Below, one piece after another: positions 4,798 to 35,854 of a stretch of DNA of 38,474 nt. Positions within the stretch are counted from its first letter, which is position 1; each line of letters starts with the position of its first letter. The position numbers were made by a program, and so were the translations under genes. The DNA comes from a virus (Duplodnaviria; Heunggongvirae; Uroviricota; Caudoviricetes): the IMG/VR virus record IMGVR_UViG_2778261226_000006; one strand, given 5' to 3'. The notes below the pieces were generated by a model. The model was given only the letters and a program-made list of their open reading frames with translations. It searched no databases and was not told where the DNA came from.

Positions 4798-5624
4798 AAG
4801 AAATGCACCACGGAATTCATCATTTCCATGGGACGCCTGTCTGGGGAAGTGCTGGCGACGTTCATCGTATTGCGGTGAGCGGAGCTGGCGCTTTCGTCTC
4901 CTATGTACGACCAGATCAGATTGCGGCGTCCATTCAGCACGCTCAGGTCGTCGGCATTGATAACGGCGCATTTTCTGCATGGGTGCGTGGGCTAAAAATT
5001 AACTGGAGTGATTTTTATAAATGGCTCCTGAACTATTACCACCATCCTAAGGTCGCTTTTTTTGTCATTCCTGATGTTGTGGACGGAGGTGAACGTGACA
5101 ATGATGCCCTGATAAACGAAGTTCCGAAAATGTTCTACGGGAAGGCAACTCCCGTCTGGCATCTGCACGAGTCAATCGATCGGCTTATCGAGCTATGTCG
5201 TGAATGGCCTCGTGTCTGCTTTGGATCGTCTGGTGAATATGCGGCTATCAGAACTGCGCACTGGCATCGTCGTATGCAGGACGCTTTTGAAGCAATTTAT
5301 TGCCGACACAATTTCAAAACAGCTGTTCATGGTTTGCGCATGCTTGACGGTCGTGTGTTGGGAAATTACCCACTGGCGACTGCCGACAGTACAAATCTTG
5401 CCTGCAATGTCCCCAAATTTAATAGCAAATATCCTGAGCTGACGCGGGCTATTCAGGAGGCTGAGTATTCGCGCAATCTGACGGAAAAGGAGCTGAAAGC
5501 TGTCATTCTGAAAAACCGTTGCGCAATTTTAAAAGGTGCAATTGAAGCTGTTCGCCCACCTTCAGTTTCTGATTGGCTGTCGAATGGTTTGCAGCCTTCA
5601 CAGCTCGAACTGGAGATTGCGTAA
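4794..5624 (+). CDS. Hypothetical protein co-operonic with dam; possible TGT-fold (DpdA-like) enzyme, unverified
   Basis: 276-aa ORF overlapping dam stop (GTGA) and A start (TAATG); His-rich N-terminus; segment [12 protein letters not shown] resembles the D-S/N-G-G/A-F catalytic loop of tRNA-guanine transglycosylase-fold proteins; no C-terminal Zn CxCxxC; function assignment is a by-eye hypothesis. Confidence 0.5.
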
Positions 5625-7996
5625 TGAACTACAGCTATTCCTGGAATGCTGAGAAAAAAGCAATCAATCCTTACGTAGAGACAGAAGAGCAATCTTCAGT
5701 TTCTGCGCTTTCAAACCTGATCGCTCTGTACGCTGCCGATAACGAGCAGGAACAGCTGCGCCGCGAGGCACTGAGTGATCAGGTCTGGGAGCGTTATTTC
5801 TTTAATGAATCCCGTGATCCTGTCCAGCGCGAAATGGAGCAGGATAAGCTCATTAGTCGGGCAAAGCTGGCGCATGAGCAGCAGCGTTTTAATCCAGATA
5901 TGGTCATTCTGGCGGACGTCAATGCCCAGCCTTCCCATATCAGCAAGCCGCTGATGCAACGTATTGAATACTTCAGCAGCCTGGGCAGGCCAAAGGCTTA
6001 TTCCCGCTATTTGCGTGAGACGATTAAGCCATGTCTGGAACGGCTGGAGCATGTACGCGACTGTCAGCTATCCACTTCTTTTCGCTTTATGGCAAGCCAT
6101 GAAGGGCTGGACGGCCTGCTGATCCTGCCTGAAATGAGTCAGGATCAGGTGAAACGCCTGTCCACCCTGGTAGCTGCGCATATGAGCATGTGCCTTGATG
6201 CAGCTTGTGGCGATTTGTATGTCACCGATGACGTTAAGCCAGAAGAAATCCGCAAGACATGGGAAAAGGTGGCAGCGGAAACCCTGCGTCTGGATGTCAT
6301 CCCGCCTGCGTTTGAGCAACTCCGCCGGAAAAGAAACCGCCGTAAACCCGTGCCCTATGAACTCATTCCGGGTTCGCTGGCGCGTATGTTGTGCGCTGAC
6401 TGGTGGTACCGGAAATTATGGAAGATGCGTTGCGAATGGCGGGAAGAGCAGTTGCGTGCTGTCTGCCTGGTCAGCAAAAAAGCATCTCCCTATGTCAGCT
6501 ATGAAGCCGTGATGCATAAACGTGAGCAGCGCCGTAAGTCGCTGGAGTTTTTTCGTTCTCATGAACTGGTGAACGAAGACGGCGACACGCTGGACATGGA
6601 GGATGTGGTAAACGCCAGCAGCAGCAACCCTGCGCATCGCCGCAATGAGATGATGGCCTGTGTTAAAGGCCTGGAGCTTATCGCGGAAATGCGCGGTGAC
6701 TGCGCCGTTTTCTACACCATCACCTGTCCGTCACGTTTCCATTCCACGCTAAATAATGGCAGGCCCAACCCAACTTGGACAAATGCGACGGTAAGACAAA
6801 GCAGTGATTATCTGGTCGGCATATTTGCTGCATTTCGTAAGGCGATGCACAAAGCCGGATTGCGGTGGTATGGCGTGCGGGTGGCTGAGCCGCATCATGA
6901 CGGTACAGTTCACTGGCACCTGTTGTGTTTTATGCGCAAAAAAGACCGCCGCGCCATCACTGCATTACTGCGTAAGTTTGCCATCCGTGAAGACCGCGAG
7001 GAACTGGGCAATAACACTGGGCCGCGCTTTAAGTCTGAGTTGATTAACCCGCGCAAAGGTACGCCAACAAGCTACATCGCGAAATACATCAGTAAGAACA
7101 TTGACGGGCGTGGTCTGGCTGGCGAGATCAGCAAGGAAACGGGTAAATCTCTGCGTGATAACGCTGAATACGTTAATGCCTGGGCGTCTCTGCATCGTGT
7201 TCAGCAATTCCGCTTCTTTGGCATTCCGGGGCGTCAGGCTTACCGTGAACTGCGATTGCTGGCTGGTCAGGCGGCAAGGCAACAGGGTGACAAAAAAGCA
7301 GGTGCGCCGGTACTGGATAACCCGCGCCTTGATGCCATTCTGGCTGCAGCTGATGCTGGTTGCTTTGCCACCTACATCATGAAGCAGGGCGGCGTACTGG
7401 TTCCCCGTAAATATCACCTCATCAGAACCGCTTATGAAATCAACGAAGAGCCGACCGCCTATGGCGATCACGGTATTCGTATTTATGGCATCTGGTCACC
7501 CATTGCAGAGGGCAAGATCTGCACTCATGCAGTGAAGTGGAAAATGGTTCGTAAAGCCGTTGACGTTCAGGAGGCGGCAGCCGACCAGGGCGCTTGCGCC
7601 CCTTGGACTCGTGGCAATAACTGTCCCCTTGCTGAAAATTTGAACCAACAAGGGAAAGACAAATCAGCTGATGGGGATACCAGAACGGACATTACCCACA
7701 TGGATGACAAGGAGTTGCACGATTACCTGCACAGTATGAACAAAAAAGAGCGCCGGGAACTGGCTGCAAGGTTACGCCTGGTGAAACCGAAACGGCGTAG
7801 AGACTACAAACAGCGAATTACAGACCATCAACGACAGCAGCTCGTCTATGAACTGAAGTCCAGAGGATTTGATGGCAGCGAGAAAGAGGTCGATTTACTC
7901 CTTCGCGGCGGCAGTATTCCGTCAGGAGCAGGCCTGCGTGTCTTCTATCGGAACCAGCGTTTGCAGGAAGATGATAAGTGGCGGAACCTGTATTAA
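5624..7996 (+). CDS. A: Replication initiation protein A (rolling-circle HUH endonuclease)
   Basis: 790 aa from ATG 5624 (TAATG overlap with upstream gene); HUH-like motif VHWHLL and two-tyrosine motif YIAKYISK (Y-x3-Y); size and position match P2/186 gene A; track ORF 5573 start is a likely 5' extension. Confidence 0.85.
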
Positions 7997-8582: not shown

Positions 8583-8700
8583 GGAACGTTCCTGATGTAA
8601 GAACTTGAATCTGACGTCAGCAAGGTTGAACAACGAGAGTAGCGAGGCGTTAGCCATGGGTAAAAAAGACAGTAATCACCAGATTATTTATCGGGGCTAG

Positions 8701-8916
8701 GTGCTGGAACGTTTAACCCTTGGCGACTGGGTCTTCTTTCAACGCCCAAAGGAGTGTGGCGGAGGTTTTTGGTTGGGCCGCATCTATGAAGACTGCTTCT
8801 GGCTTGAGCTGGAATTCCCCGTTTCGCTATATGACGGCCTGGGGTTTTTGATGGAAGTCACTAGGGTAGAGCAGAGAAGTGATGAGGTTGACGCGAATTA
8901 TCCCCTGTTTGATTAA
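8701..8916 (+). CDS. Possible small hypothetical protein (GTG start)
   Basis: 71-aa ORF with GTG start and GGGG upstream; no recognisable motif; may be spurious. Confidence 0.2.
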   Translation: MLERLTLGDWVFFQRPKECGGGFWLGRIYEDCFWLELEFPVSLYDGLGFLMEVTRVEQRSDEVDANYPLFD

Positions 8917-8935
8917 AAATGTATTAGCTTATAAT
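8908..8935 (+). promoter_or_regulatory. Candidate sigma70 promoter for the 203-aa ORF
   Basis: -10 TATAAT (8930-8935) with -35-like TTTGAT (8908-8913) at 16-bp spacing; 30 bp upstream of ATG 8965. Confidence 0.3.
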
Positions 8936-8964
8936 GGAATACTATTTTTGCAGGTGGGGGCGCA

Positions 8965-9576
8965 ATGGATTTAGTCTTTAAAGTTCTGGCTTCGTTGGGT
9001 GGGGTGTCTTTTGTTGCATCTGGCATATTTGTTTGGATCGGGAAAGTTTATTTAGAAAGATATAAGTCGCGGCTAAACAAAGATATTGCTGAATTTCAAT
9101 CACAACTGAGTGCAACTAATGAAAGAATAAAGGCTAAGTTAGACAATTCTGTTTATGTAACGAAAGCGTATTTTGATAAGGAGTTATCAGCATATAGTCT
9201 CATTTGGAATTCGATGTTTGAAACCAGAGAAAGCGTGCTTAAGCTGAGGCCTGCGCTGGATCATGTTGACCCCAACGAACCATTTGAAGAGAGAAAATTT
9301 AGAAGGTTGAAAGTTTTTTTTGATGCATTTAACACTTTTGTTACAAGTGTTGAATCTAACAAACCGTTCATCTCACCAGAGGTTTATATAATCTTGGACC
9401 GTTTCCGGAAGGAATGCCTTTCAGAGTCAATATCGTTTAAGCATAGCGATCCAGAATTTGACGGGCAAAATTATTGGAAAGAGGCGGAGTTGAACCATAC
9501 AACCATCACCAAGCTTTTTGATGAGACGTGTGATGCAATTCGAAACAGGATGCACACATTAACTGTGGTTACGTAG
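8965..9576 (+). CDS. Membrane-anchored hypothetical protein in the tin/old position (candidate exclusion/defence gene)
   Basis: 203 aa; N-terminal hydrophobic helix VLASLGGVSFVASGIFVWIG followed by charged helical domain; AT-rich relative to phage core; own promoter and SD GGTGGGGG; located between replication gene and candidate cos. Confidence 0.6.
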   Translation: MDLVFKVLASLGGVSFVASGIFVWIGKVYLERYKSRLNKDIAEFQSQLSATNERIKAKLDNSVYVTKAYFDKELSAYSLIWNSMFETRESVLKLRPALDHVDPNEPFEERKFRRLKVFFDAFNTFVTSVESNKPFISPEVYIILDRFRKECLSESISFKHSDPEFDGQNYWKEAELNHTTITKLFDETCDAIRNRMHTLTVVT

Positions 9577-9668
9577 GTTTCCAAAAAGTCTCGATGCCCG
9601 CTTTGGAGATTGTGCATGTCTATGCCGCATGAATCCGCATGATCGTTTGAGGATCGTTTTAGCTGAGG

Positions 9669-9694
9669 CCCGCCAGGAGTGGCGGGATTTTGCT
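9669..9694 (+). terminator. Candidate terminator hairpin after the 203-aa ORF
   Basis: CCCGCC (9669-9674) / GGCGGG (9681-9686) stem with 6-nt loop, followed by ATTTTGCTT. Confidence 0.3.
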
Positions 9695-9737
9695 TATGTC
9701 ATGCAGGCGCATGAAAACCGCTACATAAAGCGGGCAG

Positions 9738-9756
9738 GCGTGGCGGGGATACGAGC
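9738..9756. other. Candidate cos site (cohesive-end region)
   Basis: GGCGTGGCGGGGA (9738-9750) matches the first 13 nt of the 186/P2 cohesive-end sequence as I recall it (GGCG[T/A]GGCGGGGAAAGCA); lies in a repeat-rich GC-richer non-coding stretch between the A-side accessory genes and the Q side, where cos sits in P2 prophages. Confidence 0.4.
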
Positions 9757-9825
9757 GCGCGCAAATATGGAAATTAGCTGCGTTTTGTTATATATAGGAG
9801 AGATATTAAAAGGGTAGGCACCACT

Positions 9826-10350
9826 ATGACTGTTTTACACCTTGTAGCAGACCACCTTGTTAAGCAGGCTAATACAACCCATAGAAAGGGGGAGGTGCAC
9901 GCAATATTAGCAGATGCATATGGTCGTTCTGCTTTTAATCGGTATTATTATGCTTGTTTTCTTAACGTCCGTGAGTTTGTTTCAACTATTGATTCCAATT
10001 GGGGCAAGGTCAAGCATGCAGATGTTCCAAAATTATTACGTGATAGTGTAAGTAGAAAGATAGAAGTTGAGCTCCAAAAATCAGAAAAAATTGGCGATAT
10101 AACTTTATGTGAATATAAATCTAAAAAGAGCTTAATACGTACTTCACTGAACAATATGGCTTCAACTATGGCATTGGCATATACAATTAGGGGAGTTGTT
10201 GATTATGAGCCGGAAATTGAGATGATATTCTGTAATGGCAGTTTTTCGATTAATAAAACATCAGTGGCTTCGGCTAAGGGGTGGCTACAAACCATTAATT
10301 CAGAAAGATCGAAGGTTACCAGAATTATGAAGGAGATTGGCTTTGTCTAA
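9826..10350 (+). CDS. Hypothetical protein, upstream gene of pair preceding the retron (candidate accessory/effector)
   Basis: 174-aa ORF from ATG 9826; overlaps the next ORF; no Walker, HNH, TM or other recognisable motif by eye. Confidence 0.6.
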   Translation: MTVLHLVADHLVKQANTTHRKGEVHAILADAYGRSAFNRYYYACFLNVREFVSTIDSNWGKVKHADVPKLLRDSVSRKIEVELQKSEKIGDITLCEYKSKKSLIRTSLNNMASTMALAYTIRGVVDYEPEIEMIFCNGSFSINKTSVASAKGWLQTINSERSKVTRIMKEIGFV

Positions 10351-11080
10351 CCAGAAAATATTATCAGAATTGTTGGTAAAATTCCCGTTTATAAAAGTTA
10401 AAGATGTAACAGATTTTATGGATACAATTCTGTTGATCATCCCAATTAACAAAATAGTACCATTGTCTGCTTCGAATAGTATAACAAAACGCCAGATATC
10501 TTTATTGGTGAAACGAATAACAGAAAAGCTAAATGTAAGAGTGTTGATTAGTTACTCACCATTTTCAGATAAAGACAATATTGAAGCGGCTTTAGTGGCG
10601 TTAGCGAGAAGTAATTTTAAAAAAGGGAAGATATCTGATTTGAATTTATCTTTCTTTGATTCGCAAAACGCAGTGCTTTATGTCTTTTGTAAAAACCTTA
10701 CATTATCAGAACGCGAGAAGTGGGAGTCGTTAGTTGTAGGGATATTAAACGGTTTTAATATAAAAGTGACTTCATTTGTATATGAGGCTAAAAATAATCC
10801 TGAACCTACAATGATGGTTATTTTAAGAGCGGCAAAAAAATGTCAGCCCTTTGATCTTCCAAGATTGTTCAGTCAACTTGATAATGGCGATTATCATATT
10901 GAATCACTTGATTGGCTGAATGGGAAGCTAGACAACTTACGTAAGAAAGGATTTTTATTAAGAAGCCATGACGGAACTTATAGAATGACATTGTCAGGGT
11001 TAGAAATAGTTCCAGTGACTAAATCTAGGCAAAGTTCTGATATAGAGAGGGTCCTTTATCTTGCACGCAAACATCTATAG
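10337..11080 (+). CDS. Hypothetical protein, second gene of pair preceding the retron (candidate accessory/effector)
   Basis: 247 aa as tracked from TTG 10337; likely start TTG 10343 with AAGGAG SD (10330-10335), implying translational coupling to the upstream ORF; alternating hydrophobic/charged N-terminal region, C-terminal segment KKGFLLRSHDGTYRMTLSGLEIV; family unknown. Confidence 0.6.
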   Translation: MALSNQKILSELLVKFPFIKVKDVTDFMDTILLIIPINKIVPLSASNSITKRQISLLVKRITEKLNVRVLISYSPFSDKDNIEAALVALARSNFKKGKISDLNLSFFDSQNAVLYVFCKNLTLSEREKWESLVVGILNGFNIKVTSFVYEAKNNPEPTMMVILRAAKKCQPFDLPRLFSQLDNGDYHIESLDWLNGKLDNLRKKGFLLRSHDGTYRMTLSGLEIVPVTKSRQSSDIERVLYLARKHL

Positions 11081-11089
11081 TGGTATATT
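11061..11089 (+). promoter_or_regulatory. Candidate sigma70 promoter for retron msr-msd-ret transcript
   Basis: -35 TTGCAC (11061-11066), 17-bp spacer, -10 TATATT (11084-11089); predicted start about 11096, coinciding with the a1 repeat. Confidence 0.45.
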
Positions 11090-11095
11090 CGCGTT

Positions 11096-11268
11096 GGTAG
11101 TGGCGTTCACGAGAGTATGCATCATGCTCATTTGTGAAGGTCGCGGACAGAATGTGCGCCTGCGAATCAGCAGTCGTTCCTTCGAAACGTCTGCTGATTC
11201 GCAGGCGTCATCAACGAAAGTTTTCATCAGCTTTGCTTAAGGATTGACCTTATGAAAACGCCACTACC
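11096..11268 (+). ncRNA. Candidate retron non-coding RNA (msr-msd)
   Basis: 12-nt perfect inverted repeat GGTAGTGGCGTT (11096-11107) / AACGCCACTACC (11257-11268) as a1/a2; GAGAG immediately after a1 (candidate branching G region); 17-bp perfect stem 11157-11173 / 11191-11207 as msd hairpin; directly upstream of and overlapping the start of the retron-type RT. Confidence 0.5.
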
Positions 11269-12229
11269 CTTATTTTTCACATTCACTGATGCCGAACAGT
11301 TTCTTAAGGCGTTGAGCACACCGCTGAGAGATAGATATTCTGCGGAACTTATTCGACTACAAGGCCTCAGGCTTCCCCCATTAGTTTCTTGGAGTATCTT
11401 GTCTGTTGCCATTGGCGTAAGCCCACAATTTATTACTTCGTTAATTAAGAATAAGTCAAAATACTATCGTGTTTTTTCTATTTCCAAAGGAAGAGGAAAG
11501 AAAAAAAGAATTATTGAAGCACCCAAGGTTAGTATAAAAATCATTCAGTCTTGGGTCGCTCATCATTTAAGCATTAATCATAGTCTTGGCATAAGTGAAA
11601 ATGCATATGCTTTTATCCCAGGTAAGAATGGGATATATGAAGCTGCAAGTAAACATTGTGGTGCAAAATGGATCCTGTCTATTGATTTAAGAGATTTTTT
11701 CCATACGATCACTTCAGATATAGTGATTTCAACATTAGTTGAAATCGGATATAGAGCCGATCAGGCTGCTAAATTGAGTGAATTACTTACCTTGAATCAG
11801 AGACTTCCGCAAGGTGCGCCAAGTAGCCCTGTTATCTCAAATTTAGTATTTAGGTCAACTGACTTAAAGATTAATGAGTTGATTTCTAATACGGGTATTA
11901 AATATACTAGATATGCTGATGATTTGACCTTCTCCGGTGATGATGAAACATTTGATATCGAGGAACTTAAAGATAATGTTGTAGAGTTGTTACTATCTGA
12001 TAATTGGGTTGTGGCTGAGGAAAAACTCAGAATAGCTAGGATTCCTAATAGATTAAAAGTACATGGTTTTCTAGTTCATGAAAATAAACCTAGATTGACT
12101 AAAGGCTATCGAAATAAAATTAGAGCATATAAACATTTATTGAGGACTGGGAAAATAGTTGAGAAGGATTTTGATAAAATTAAAGGGCATGTTAACTATA
12201 GTGAATATATTGATAGATTGAATGAGTAA
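11252..12229 (+). CDS. ret: Retron-type reverse transcriptase
   Basis: 325 aa; RT motifs LSIDLRDFFHTIT, LPQGAPSSPVISNLVF and YTRYADDLTFSG (YADD catalytic box), plus RLKVHGFLV in the position of the retron VTG motif; N-terminal Y..F.I.K..G..R.I..P pattern; close by-eye similarity to Ec86-type retron RT motifs. Confidence 0.9.
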   Translation: MKTPLPLFFTFTDAEQFLKALSTPLRDRYSAELIRLQGLRLPPLVSWSILSVAIGVSPQFITSLIKNKSKYYRVFSISKGRGKKKRIIEAPKVSIKIIQSWVAHHLSINHSLGISENAYAFIPGKNGIYEAASKHCGAKWILSIDLRDFFHTITSDIVISTLVEIGYRADQAAKLSELLTLNQRLPQGAPSSPVISNLVFRSTDLKINELISNTGIKYTRYADDLTFSGDDETFDIEELKDNVVELLLSDNWVVAEEKLRIARIPNRLKVHGFLVHENKPRLTKGYRNKIRAYKHLLRTGKIVEKDFDKIKGHVNYSEYIDRLNE

Positions 12230-12246
12230 GGGCCTAGCCCTTACTC
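12224..12246. terminator. Bidirectional hairpin spanning the convergent ret and Q stop regions
   Basis: GAGTAAGGGC (12224-12233) / GCCCTTACTC (12237-12246), 10-bp perfect stem, 3-nt loop; ret stop TAA 12227-12229 lies in the left arm, Q stop at 12249-12251 just beyond. Confidence 0.4.
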
Positions 12247-12248
12247 AT

Positions 12249-13280
12249 TTAATTTAATGTGTATATTCCAAAGGATATGATTTTATCTCCTATCCAGTTA
12301 TTTAACTCTTCTAGTCTTCTCTGTAATGGTATTAACTCATTCCTCACAAAAACAAGGCTTGCCTTCTCCACATCCCCAAAACCCCCAACATTATTAGGCA
12401 TTATCCCCATCATTTGTGGGGGTACACGATGCGCCGCCATCATGTCGTCCCGGCTTACGTTCTTGATGTTCAGAAACTCATCCTTCGCCGCGACTTCTGA
12501 TAACGGGATAATCTGAAGTCCGTCCTTTTTGCCGTTAGGAGAGTACATAAACAGATTGCGGAAGTTACCTGGTCCTTTGGCGCTTTTCATTGCATTGCGG
12601 AGGTTGTTCACATCCTCCTGGTTTTGTGCGGCGTCGGTCATGTACATGATGAAGCCTGCATGACTGCCGTTGATGTAATACTTCCGGCGGAACAGCGTGG
12701 CGGACTCGTTGAGCAGGGCTGACGGAATGGCAGAAAGATAACCGGGCAGGCCGTAGATCTCCTGGTTGATGTCCGGTTCCATCAGATGAAAAATGCTGCC
12801 TTTCGTGAACTGATACGGCTGGGTTGTCATACCGTATTGCACAAACCAGTAGGTATCCAGGTCTAACCCGCGTCGGGTGTATTTTGCCAGAGCAGGCTCA
12901 AGGGCGATAACTTCACCAAACCGGTTCGTGCGTTTCTCCAGGTAGGCGTTACCAAATACCAGATAGTCCTGCACAAAACGTGAAAAAGCCTGTTGGCTGA
13001 GCAGCGGGTGAGGGATGTAGGTGCTGGTCAGAATGTTGCATTTCACCGCAATCGGTGAGCTGTGATGCACGGCGGCGCGGAAGGTTCGCGCCAGTCCGTC
13101 AAAGCTGACGGGAGGCTCATACCAGCGATCTGTCTGTACGCATTCCACATAGTCCAGCAGTTCGCGGCGGTCAAGTACTGGAATGGGATCACCGAAGCTG
13201 AAAGCCTCAGCCGTTGGAGCGTTGCCTGGTTTTGTGTTGTGATCAACCTTTACCAGTTTGATGTTTTTATGTTTGCTCAT
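12249..13280 (-). CDS. Q: Portal protein (P2 gpQ-like)
   Basis: 343 aa, essentially the size of P2 Q; position before terminase large subunit on the same strand; ATGA overlap with upstream gene. Confidence 0.85.
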   Translation of the reverse strand: MSKHKNIKLVKVDHNTKPGNAPTAEAFSFGDPIPVLDRRELLDYVECVQTDRWYEPPVSFDGLARTFRAAVHHSSPIAVKCNILTSTYIPHPLLSQQAFSRFVQDYLVFGNAYLEKRTNRFGEVIALEPALAKYTRRGLDLDTYWFVQYGMTTQPYQFTKGSIFHLMEPDINQEIYGLPGYLSAIPSALLNESATLFRRKYYINGSHAGFIMYMTDAAQNQEDVNNLRNAMKSAKGPGNFRNLFMYSPNGKKDGLQIIPLSEVAAKDEFLNIKNVSRDDMMAAHRVPPQMMGIMPNNVGGFGDVEKASLVFVRNELIPLQRRLEELNNWIGDKIISFGIYTLN

Positions 13281-35631: not shown

Positions 35632-35698
35632 TTTGCCGCCAAAGATAAGTAAAGTAGTTTCTAACTTATTGATTATGGAATGGAAGAATAGCAGGCAA

Positions 35699-35742
35699 CA
35701 AAAAACCCATCAACCTTGAACCGAAATGGCGGGGTTGATGGG
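35699..35742 (-). terminator. Rho-independent terminator downstream of ybjL
   Basis: CCCATCAACC (35706-35715) / GGTTGATGGG (35733-35742) 10-bp stem; on the minus strand followed by a U-tract (plus-strand A-run 35700-35705). Confidence 0.6.
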
Positions 35743-35854
35743 CTCCACAAAATGGGGACATCAAAGAAAAGCAGTGGCACTAATTAAGACTGATGCCCTG
35801 CGGAAAAGTTCTGCGGTTGTGCAAAAAAATTTCATTTTCAGGGCAACTTCAGTT

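What the first reader, a model, noticed from the sequence alone, without database searches (positions are those of the whole stretch)
8908..9694. Stand-alone membrane-anchored 203-aa gene with its own promoter in the tin/old accessory position
An AT-rich single-gene unit (TATAAT promoter, strong SD, terminator-like hairpin) lies between the conserved A-side genes and the candidate cos site, where P2 carries its exclusion genes old and tin. The protein has one N-terminal TM helix and a charged helical domain with no motif I recognise. It is a candidate single-gene exclusion or abortive-infection determinant.
Basis: inference. Interest (0 to 1): 0.6.

Follow-up and report, generated by a model that had tools for sequence, protein, structure and literature searches.

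The report
Membrane-anchored prophage moron, unnamed family
A real, separately expressed prophage gene encodes a membrane-tethered helical-bundle protein from a large uncharacterised family carried by phages and satellites, probably to exclude rival phages, though this is untested.

Summary
ORF 8965-9576 is a real 203-aa gene under purifying selection (dN/dS 0.11). It is AT-rich (38% GC) and lies in the variable slot between the gpA-side genes and cos (9737-9755) of a P2-like prophage, where P2 carries tin/old.

It is not part of the type IX retron just beyond cos. Among 29 P2-like loci with this gene, the slot beyond cos holds 17 different cargos.

Published RNA-seq of the 98%-identical LF82/Cartapus ortholog shows it transcribed in the lysogen while its upstream neighbour is at background. 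The "terminator" hairpin belongs to the conserved cos flank, not to the gene.

The family is large: 1178 representative clusters, with no Pfam or PADLOC model. Members sit in accessory slots of temperate phages and satellites of Proteobacteria, Firmicutes and Chloroflexota.

The AlphaFold2 model (pLDDT 94.7) shows a conserved Gly-rich TM helix running into a stalk and a cytoplasmic four-helix bundle. The bundle has no catalytic motif and only generic fold matches. There is no homology to Tin, Old, SieA, SieB, Sie2009 or PdpSau.

A stand-alone membrane-based exclusion or abortive-infection role is the best reading, but it rests on context and architecture only.

The parts
8656..8916 (+). Decayed upstream neighbour (phrog_2100 small phage gene). 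It is part of the same transferable cargo block but is a pseudogene here, with TAG at 8698-8700.
   Evidence: phrog_2100 E 1.4e-28. Intact at 86 aa in Cartapus; nonsense codon in the window and strain H1; frameshifted in the Enterobacter loci. Homologs occur in unrelated phages without the 203-aa gene.
8909..8935 (+). Promoter-like region: TTGATT (8909-8914), 15-nt spacer, TATAAT (8930-8935).
   Evidence: Sequence. The -10 is invariant in E. coli and Enterobacter orthologs. Not called by the consensus scan because of the spacer length. Autonomous transcription of the LF82 ortholog in lysogens: PMC9928086 Table 1 and S1 Table.
8952..8957 (+). Shine-Dalgarno-like AGGTGG, 7 nt upstream of the ATG.
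   Evidence: Sequence.
8965..9576 (+). CDS of the 203-aa bitopic membrane protein (phrog_26391; unnamed family).
   Evidence: dN/dS 0.11.
8983..9042 (+). Codons 7-26: the single transmembrane helix with a conserved small-residue motif (G12 G13, G20, G26).
   Evidence: Hydropathy. 92 of 97 family members have exactly one N-terminal TM segment. Positive-inside bias holds in 94 of 97. The TM is as conserved as the bundle helices: 1.96 bits per position, Gly at 63-76% of members at positions 12, 13 and 26.
9043..9147 (+). Codons 27-61: helical stalk, continuous with the TM helix.
   Evidence: Deep-alignment AlphaFold2 model: one helix spans residues 2-92, pLDDT 95-98 in this stretch.
9148..9564 (+). 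Codons 62-200: cytoplasmic four-helix bundle. Conserved residues are E73, W81, L94-R95-P96, P134-F135, E154, I192-R193, R195.
9611..9762 (.). Conserved cos-flank backbone. It contains the terminator-like hairpin (9669-9686) and the cos cohesive-end region (9737-9755). This is the right border of the variable slot and is not part of the gene cassette.
   Evidence: Alignment with loci lacking the gene; hairpin; match to P2 cosR; Cartapus cos annotation.

Best explanation
This is a stand-alone prophage moron. It is transcribed from its own promoter in the lysogen.

The product is a bitopic inner-membrane protein with about 6 residues outside. It has one conserved Gly/Ala/Ser-rich TM helix. That helix continues as a rigid stalk of about 35 residues into a cytoplasmic four-helix bundle with no catalytic motif.

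It belongs to a large, unnamed family. Temperate phages and phage satellites of several phyla carry members in their accessory slots.

The most likely function is single-protein defence of the lysogen against other phages, acting at the cytoplasmic face of the membrane. In this model the bundle is a binding or sensing module for a phage product, for example an ejected or early protein. The conserved TM helices are the effector: they associate in the membrane and either leak or depolarise it (abortive infection) or obstruct genome entry.

Shown: gene reality, architecture, topology bias, autonomous expression of the ortholog, independence from neighbours, and accessory-slot distribution.

Inferred: the anti-phage role, the sensor/effector split, and oligomerisation.
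For: - Real and selected: dN/dS 0.11, while the adjacent phrog_2100 gene decays.
- Expressed in lysogeny on its own: LF82_789/CARTA_47 is one of two Cartapus morons. Its log2 fpkm is 5.4-5.6 in LB, against 3.1-3.3 for the gene upstream, and rises to 10.5 in macrophages.
- Location: the A-side slot of the P2 gpA-gpQ hotspot described as a defence reservoir (PMC9122126).
- Independent of neighbours: 29 loci carry 17 different Q-side cargos. Most are known or candidate defences: retrons, OLD-like, AbiU, ShosTA, the PADLOC candidate (PDC) families and others.
- No conserved partner: none at the P2-like loci, where cos bounds the gene downstream and only a decaying phrog_2100 pseudogene lies upstream. 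In the 11 other contexts compared, 19 flanking ORFs plus the phrog_2100 ORF share no similarity at E <= 1e-3.
- Wide MGE distribution: Pseudomonas phage Riah beside cI; C. innocuum phage Maintenon; an L. plantarum PICI-like element after int; enterobacterial satellites right after int-alpA; a Chloroflexota prophage.
- Architecture: pLDDT 94.7 model.
- Topology: N-out/C-in by the positive-inside rule in 94 of 97 members.
- TM motif: as conserved as the soluble domain. This argues that the helix does more than anchor the protein.
- Precedent: AbiP and PdpSau are single prophage or plasmid genes with one N-terminal TM helix and a cytoplasmic domain. PdpSau alters membrane polarity and permeability on infection, leading to cell death (PMC10127798). 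AbiP toxicity is triggered by a phage major tail protein (PMC13064643).
Against: - No phenotype is known for any member.
- No hit to any PADLOC model in 97 members.
- Not found by accession in the DefensePredictor supplements. Listed only as 'hypothetical' in Rousset's tables.
- The bundle matches only generic binding or sensor bundles.
- The conserved charged residues could be purely structural salt bridges.
- The transcript also rises in DMEM and in macrophages, as does the neighbouring DUF4145 gene. This could point to a host-physiology role or to general derepression.
- Oligomerisation and membrane action are pure inference. The monomer model cannot show them.
- The -35 element is poor.
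Confidence: 0.4

Rival explanations
1. Pure superinfection exclusion. The protein sits at the inner membrane and blocks genome entry of incoming phages without harming the cell, as P22 SieA, T4 Imm, HK97 gp15 or lactococcal Sie2009 do.
For: It is a prophage-expressed membrane protein. In satellites and in the L. plantarum element, the gene sits right after int. That is the lysogeny-module position where Sie2009 sits in Tuc2009. It is constitutively expressed in the LF82 lysogen, which implies no gross toxicity.
Against: Only about 6 residues face the periplasm. Nearly all the mass is on a stalk about 50 A inside the cytoplasm, which is an odd geometry for plugging an entry channel. There is no homology to SieA, SieB or Sie2009 (0 bits or less). 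The same family occurs in Gram-positive and Gram-negative elements whose entry routes differ.
Confidence: 0.2
2. Lysogenic-conversion factor unrelated to phages. It would be a membrane-tethered adaptor that modulates a host membrane or stress pathway and benefits the lysogen, for example under nutrient limitation or inside macrophages.
For: The LF82 ortholog rises about 30-fold from LB to 6 h in macrophages. The four-helix-bundle fold resembles adaptor and sensor bundles such as the FAT domain and Tar/TorS sensor domains.
Against: The adjacent DUF4145 gene shows the same induction, so the rise may be generic. Family members occur in soil and water MAGs, Lactiplantibacillus, Pseudomonas and Clostridium phages. 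A pathogen-specific role is therefore unlikely. Carriage is restricted to phage and satellite accessory slots next to defence genes.
Confidence: 0.15
3. Function in the element's own life cycle. Possibilities include control of lysis timing (antiholin-like), membrane tethering of replication or packaging, or helper-satellite interference.
For: In satellites it is co-oriented with int-alpA. In phage Maintenon and the Chloroflexota prophage it lies near terminase genes. Here it abuts cos.
Against: It is expressed while the lytic genes are silent. It is present in only 52 of 5426 E. coli genomes, and other P2-like prophages carry unrelated genes in the same slot. It is therefore dispensable for the P2 cycle. 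Cartapus and its relatives keep the usual P2 lysis and packaging genes.
Confidence: 0.12
4. It is a fourth component or accessory of the adjacent type IX retron (9826-12229).
For: The two are only 250 nt apart on the same strand.
Against: The cos site lies between them, so they sit at opposite ends of the packaged genome. The same gene is paired with 17 different Q-side cargos in 29 loci. It also occurs in satellites and phages with no retron. PADLOC's type IX retron models cover the three downstream genes only.
Confidence: 0.02

Closest known systems
AbiC/AbiP group and S. aureus PdpSau (single-gene, membrane-anchored abortive-infection proteins)
   Same: All are a single accessory gene on a prophage or plasmid, with an N-terminal TM helix and the bulk of the protein in the cytoplasm. 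They are not toxic until infection. PdpSau alters membrane polarity and permeability after infection, and AbiP toxicity is triggered by a phage major tail protein (PMC10127798, PMC13064643). This is the closest analogy for how the window protein may work.
   Different: There is no sequence relationship. None of 97 family members hits Pfam Abi_C or PADLOC AbiC. PdpSau scores 0.0 bits against the family HMM. AbiP and PdpSau are described with a nucleic-acid-binding, OB-like, positively charged domain. This protein has an all-alpha bundle on a stalk, and the family's net charge is about neutral (median -1).
Superinfection-exclusion membrane proteins (P22 SieA and SieB, lactococcal Sie2009)
   Same: They are small, prophage-expressed membrane proteins encoded in lysogeny or accessory modules. 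In satellites the position next to int mirrors Sie2009.
   Different: There is no homology (0 bits or less). TM number and topology differ. For this family nothing is known about DNA entry.
P2 Tin and Old (the exclusion genes in this slot of P2 itself)
   Same: Same genomic slot between gpA/orf91 and cos. They are non-essential and expressed from the prophage.
   Different: They are unrelated proteins. Tin and Old are soluble, and Old is an ATPase-nuclease. They lie on the opposite strand and form a two-gene transcript.
Four-helix-bundle sensor domains of chemoreceptors and histidine kinases (Tar/Tsr LBD, TorS, Adeh_2942)
   Different: Identity is 3-12%, and the Foldseek E-value is at best 0.03. 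Those domains are periplasmic, sit between two TM helices, and feed a signalling output. This bundle is cytoplasmic by charge bias, follows a single TM helix, and has no output domain. Designed bundles and talin score nearly as well, so the match is to a generic fold.

Membership tests
PHROG phrog_26391 (unknown function) | Full-length match to the family profile. | tested here: met
   E 8.7e-142, residues 1-203 against profile positions 1-203 of 203. The family carries no functional annotation.
Type IX retron (HEPN_IX + HTH_IX + RT_IX) | The gene is a conserved, co-inherited component of the retron operon. | tested here: not met
   No PADLOC hit for the gene. cos lies between it and the retron. 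29 loci with the gene carry 17 different Q-side cargos.
P2 Tin / Old exclusion proteins | Sequence homology to Tin or Old. | tested here: not met
   Family HMM against P2 Tin gives -0.4 bits and against Old -0.9 bits. Only the genomic slot is shared.
AbiC/AbiP/PdpSau group | Homology of the extra-membrane domain (Pfam Abi_C, PADLOC AbiC, PdpSau). | tested here: not met
   No Abi_C or AbiC hit in 97 members. PdpSau scores 0.0 bits. The AbiP sequence itself was not available to test.
AbiC/AbiP/PdpSau group | N-terminal TM anchor with a cytoplasmic C-terminal domain, encoded as a single accessory gene. | tested here: met
AbiC/AbiP/PdpSau group | Abortive-infection phenotype with a membrane change on infection. 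| not testable with these tools
   Requires infection assays.
Sie proteins (SieA, SieB, Sie2009) | Sequence homology. | tested here: not met
   SieA -0.1 bits, SieB -0.4 bits, Sie2009 -1.7 bits. No SieB Pfam hit in 97 members.
Sie proteins (SieA, SieB, Sie2009) | Blocks entry or development of superinfecting phage when expressed from the prophage. | not testable with these tools
   Expression from the prophage is shown for the LF82 ortholog. The phenotype is unknown.
HEPN superfamily | Rx4-6H motif on a four-helix core. | tested here: not met
4HB_MCP / TarH-type sensor domain | Periplasmic four-helix bundle between two TM helices, coupled to a signalling output. | tested here: not met

The most novel reading that the evidence does not exclude
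The window gene may be the E. coli representative of a new, cross-phylum family of single-protein anti-phage sensor-effectors. The family has more than 1000 clusters. Phages and their satellites would carry it as a standing first layer of immunity beside swappable defence systems.

In this reading, a cytoplasmic four-helix bundle held about 50 A below the membrane detects an incoming phage component. The conserved Gly-rich TM helices then assemble to collapse the membrane potential or to close the entry route.
Probability: 0.3. Interest if true: 0.7.

Novelty: new variant of a known kind. Interest (0 to 1): 0.5.

Why it matters
If the cassette protects against phages, it would add a very compact (0.7 kb) and widespread defence family. 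Current defence annotation misses it: PADLOC and Pfam give nothing, and RefSeq sometimes mislabels it valyl-tRNA synthetase.

It would also show that the P2 cos hotspot is bipartite. One side holds a stable single-gene module, while the Q-side slot across cos holds many different cargos, and the two sides combine independently.

The gene is naturally expressed in the Crohn's-associated strain LF82 and is strongly induced in macrophages. A phenotype would therefore be directly relevant to prophage-host biology in the gut.

If no phage phenotype is found, the family is still a large, well-folded membrane protein family of unknown function that is specific to mobile elements.

Tried and rejected
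- Retron component: rejected.
- Two-gene unit with the upstream phrog_2100 ORF: rejected. That ORF is a pseudogene here and in other loci, and it occurs alone in other phages.
- "Tiny enterobacterial family": the word-indexed search found only 18 clusters. The exhaustive HMM search found 1178, so the first impression was a sensitivity artefact.
- HEPN RNase idea, from the RxRxH motif in close relatives: rejected by family conservation and fold search.
- Own terminator: the hairpin is cos-flank backbone.
- Sequence search of PDB chains: nothing better than E 0.5.
- BFVD Foldseek: nothing at E <= 0.001.
- The afdb50 library was not available.
With a closer alignment it found only 2 loci in species-representative genomes.
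- Neighbours of distant homologs gave no Pfam or PADLOC clue.
- Literature: Rousset 2022 lists the protein only as 'hypothetical' in its hotspot tables. The DefensePredictor supplements do not contain its accessions. No supplement text is held for the 2026 NAR P2/P4 paper. The LF82 CRISPRi preprint supplement lacks the locus tag. Brenes & Laub 2025 (Cell Host Microbe) is not held, so I could not check whether that selection recovered this gene.

Full report
**What is there**

The window is a P2-like (Peduoviridae) prophage.
- gpA is at 5573-7996.
- After it come a small phrog_698 ORF, a DinI gene (to 8582) and a phrog_2100 ORF (8656-8916).
- Then comes the target ORF, 8965-9576 (+), 203 aa.
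- The target is AT-rich: 38.4% GC against 52.6% for gpA.
- It has an SD-like AGGTGG 7 nt before the ATG and a perfect TATAAT at 8930-8935.
- The best -35 (TTGATT) is 15 nt from the -10, so the consensus scan does not report a promoter here.

Downstream, a GC-rich hairpin (9669-9686) followed by ATTTTGCTT is present.

The cos site lies at 9737-9755. This stretch matches 14 of 19 bases of P2 cosR, and the hairpin just before it is conserved. The linear record of phage Cartapus ends at window position 9704 and annotates cos in its first 59 nt. P2's own tin and old genes lie on the same side of cos but on the other strand.

**Borders of the unit**

BLAST against P2-like prophages that lack the gene shows shared backbone up to about 8650-8700 and again from 9611 to 9762.

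The variable A-side slot is therefore about 8650-9611. In other E. coli prophages it holds a GNAT gene, a DUF6236 gene, or a hypothetical plus a DUF6575 gene.

The hairpin sits in the conserved cos flank. It is not the gene's own terminator, although it may still stop transcription.

The cargo block that moves between E. coli and Enterobacter prophages includes the phrog_2100 ORF. That ORF carries a nonsense codon here and in strain H1, and it is frameshifted in Enterobacter. The 203-aa gene, by contrast, is intact, with dN/dS of 0.11 at dS 0.86. phrog_2100 homologs also occur alone in unrelated phages. The functional unit is the single gene.

**Independence from the retron**

The three ORFs beyond cos are a complete type IX retron by PADLOC:
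- HEPN_IX, 9826-10350, E 1.4e-52.
- HTH_IX, 10337-11080, E 1.5e-61.
- RT_IX, 11252-12229, E 4e-129.

The target is not part of it, because cos separates them. In 29 P2-like loci that carry the gene, the slot between cos and the portal gene falls into 17 unrelated sequence clusters. The loci come from the window, RefSeq E. coli, Enterobacter assemblies and IMG/VR. The clusters include:
- St85-type retrons, DUF4145, and an OLD-like AAA_15/TOPRIM protein;
- AAA_21 plus RloB, and SLFN plus HATPase_c_4;
- PDC-S49 (KAP NTPase), PDC-S59 and PDC-S33 (RelA_SpoT);
- ShosTA, AbiU/AIPR and PDC-M03.

The hotspot is therefore bipartite, and the two sides recombine freely.

**Expression**

The 98%-identical ortholog in E. 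coli LF82 (prophage Cartapus; LF82_789 = CARTA_47) is one of only two Cartapus morons in published RNA-seq. It is 7-fold above prophage background in LB. Its log2 fpkm values are:

| Condition | log2 fpkm |
|---|---|
| LB | 5.4-5.6 |
| DMEM | 7.1-8.6 |
| Macrophages | 9.0-10.5 |

The gene immediately upstream (CARTA_46) stays at 3.1-3.3 in LB (PMC9928086 Table 1 and S1 Table). That step-up supports a promoter in or just before the 48-nt gap. This region is nearly identical in the window.

**The family**

Pfam, NCBIfam and PADLOC give nothing. PHROGs gives a full-length match to phrog_26391, which has unknown function.

The word-indexed search found only 18 enterobacterial clusters. The exhaustive profile search found 1178 representatives at E <= 1e-3 and 523 at E <= 1e-10. 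Nearly all are 190-220 aa and align end to end. None of 97 diverse members hits a meaningful Pfam or PADLOC family.

Members occur in these places:
- Pseudomonas phage Riah, next to the cI region.
- C. innocuum phage Maintenon.
- A circular PICI-like element of L. plantarum, after int.
- Enterobacterial satellites, right after int-alpA.
- A Chloroflexota prophage upstream of the terminase.
- Next to a STAND NTPase in a metagenomic contig.

Flanking ORFs in these contexts share no similarity with each other. There is no conserved partner.

**Structure and topology**

With the 97-sequence alignment, AlphaFold2 gives pLDDT 94.7 and pTM 0.77. One continuous helix spans residues 2-92 and forms the TM segment, the stalk and the first bundle helix. 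Three further helices (107-131, 138-160, 168-200) close a four-helix bundle. The shallow-alignment model agrees apart from a kink.

Of 97 members, 92 have exactly one N-terminal TM segment. K/R residues average 0.4 before the TM segment and 3.2 after it. The bias is in the same direction in 94 of 97. This predicts that the N-terminus is outside and the bundle is in the cytoplasm.

The TM helix is as conserved as the bundle helices, at 1.96 bits per position. Gly is found at positions 12, 13 and 26 in 63-76% of members, and small residues occupy positions 10, 14, 15, 20, 22 and 23. That is more than a passive anchor needs.

Family-wide conserved polar residues are E73, R95, D99, R114, E154, N177, R193 and R195. 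No His is conserved, and there is no recognisable catalytic constellation.

Fold searches return only generic bundles:
- Foldseek against PDB: no match at E <= 0.001; the best is 0.03, to FAT and Tar domains.
- Foldseek against BFVD: no match at E <= 0.001.
- Sequence search of PDB chains: nothing.

**Comparison with known exclusion and Abi proteins**

A family HMM recovers the distant true members (85-156 bits). It gives 0 bits or less for P2 Tin and Old, P22 SieA, SieB and gp17, Tuc2009 Sie2009, and S. aureus PdpSau. The protein is not a member of any of these families.

The closest functional analogues are AbiP and PdpSau. Each is a single accessory gene with one N-terminal TM helix and a cytoplasmic domain. 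AbiP toxicity is triggered by a phage major tail protein, and PdpSau alters membrane polarity and permeability after infection.

**Interpretation**

The evidence supports a stand-alone moron that is expressed in the lysogen. It encodes a membrane-tethered, non-enzymatic binding module. It is carried only in accessory slots of temperate phages and satellites, and here it sits in a hotspot otherwise filled with defence systems.

The best reading is a single-protein anti-phage function at the inner face of the membrane. The bundle would act as sensor and the conserved TM helices as effector (confidence 0.4).

The rivals are:
- a non-lethal entry block (0.2);
- a host-physiology conversion factor (0.15);
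- a role in the element's own cycle (0.12).

No experiment on any family member was found. Rousset et al. list the protein only as 'hypothetical' in their hotspot tables. One relevant paper, Brenes & Laub 2025, could not be read.

**Verdict**

The gene is an uncharacterised, widely distributed family that current defence annotation misses, and it is worth a simple plaque-assay test. Interest 0.5.

Noticed in passing
window 9826-12229: A complete type IX retron lies on the Q side of cos: HEPN_IX 9826-10350, HTH_IX 10337-11080, RT_IX 11252-12229. The ncRNA is probably in the 11081-11251 gap. Rfam gives no hit there.
   Followed up: partly
window 8650-9611 and 9763-12251: The P2 gpA-gpQ hotspot is bipartite. 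The slot on the A side of cos and the slot on the Q side swap independently. 29 loci with the same A-side gene carry 17 different Q-side cargos, mostly known or candidate defence systems.
   Followed up: yes
window 8656-8916: The phrog_2100 small gene is a pseudogene here, with TAG at 8698-8700. It is also broken in strain H1 and frameshifted in the Enterobacter loci. It is intact (86 aa) in phage Cartapus.
   Followed up: yes
L009 6071-7714; L022 5084-6728; L021 5302-7695 and 16607-16621: The satellites that carry 36-47% homologs appear to be integrated inside late genes of lambda-like prophages. In L009 and L022 the int gene abuts an 84-91 aa fragment of the major capsid gene E. In L021 the element sits between a GpA_ATPase fragment and a GpA_nuclease ORF of the large terminase.
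   Followed up: no
window 35697-35775 (-): RybB sRNA (Rfam, 105 bits). This part of the window is host chromosome, so the prophage ends before it.
   Followed up: no
RefSeq hits H32, H34, H35, H37: Several RefSeq genomes annotate this gene as 'valyl-tRNA synthetase'. The likely cause is a sub-threshold coiled-coil match to PF10458 (E 0.0097, 16.6 bits against a cut-off of 25.9).
   Followed up: partly
window 9629-9817: A 62-aa ORF (phrog_28685) runs straight across the cos cohesive-end site. It is unlikely to be a real gene in the linear phage genome.
   Followed up: no
L005 3465-4337 (E. coli 2012EL-2448): A 90%-identical copy of the gene carries frameshifts and stop codons. It lies in a degraded prophage remnant next to dprA. 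Similar unannotated copies occur in other STEC genomes (H47-H49).
   Followed up: partly
L029 5662-6216 (Pseudomonas phage Riah): The gene next to the Riah homolog has a weak bulb-lectin (B_lectin) match. It may be a lectin-like bacteriocin moron.
   Followed up: no
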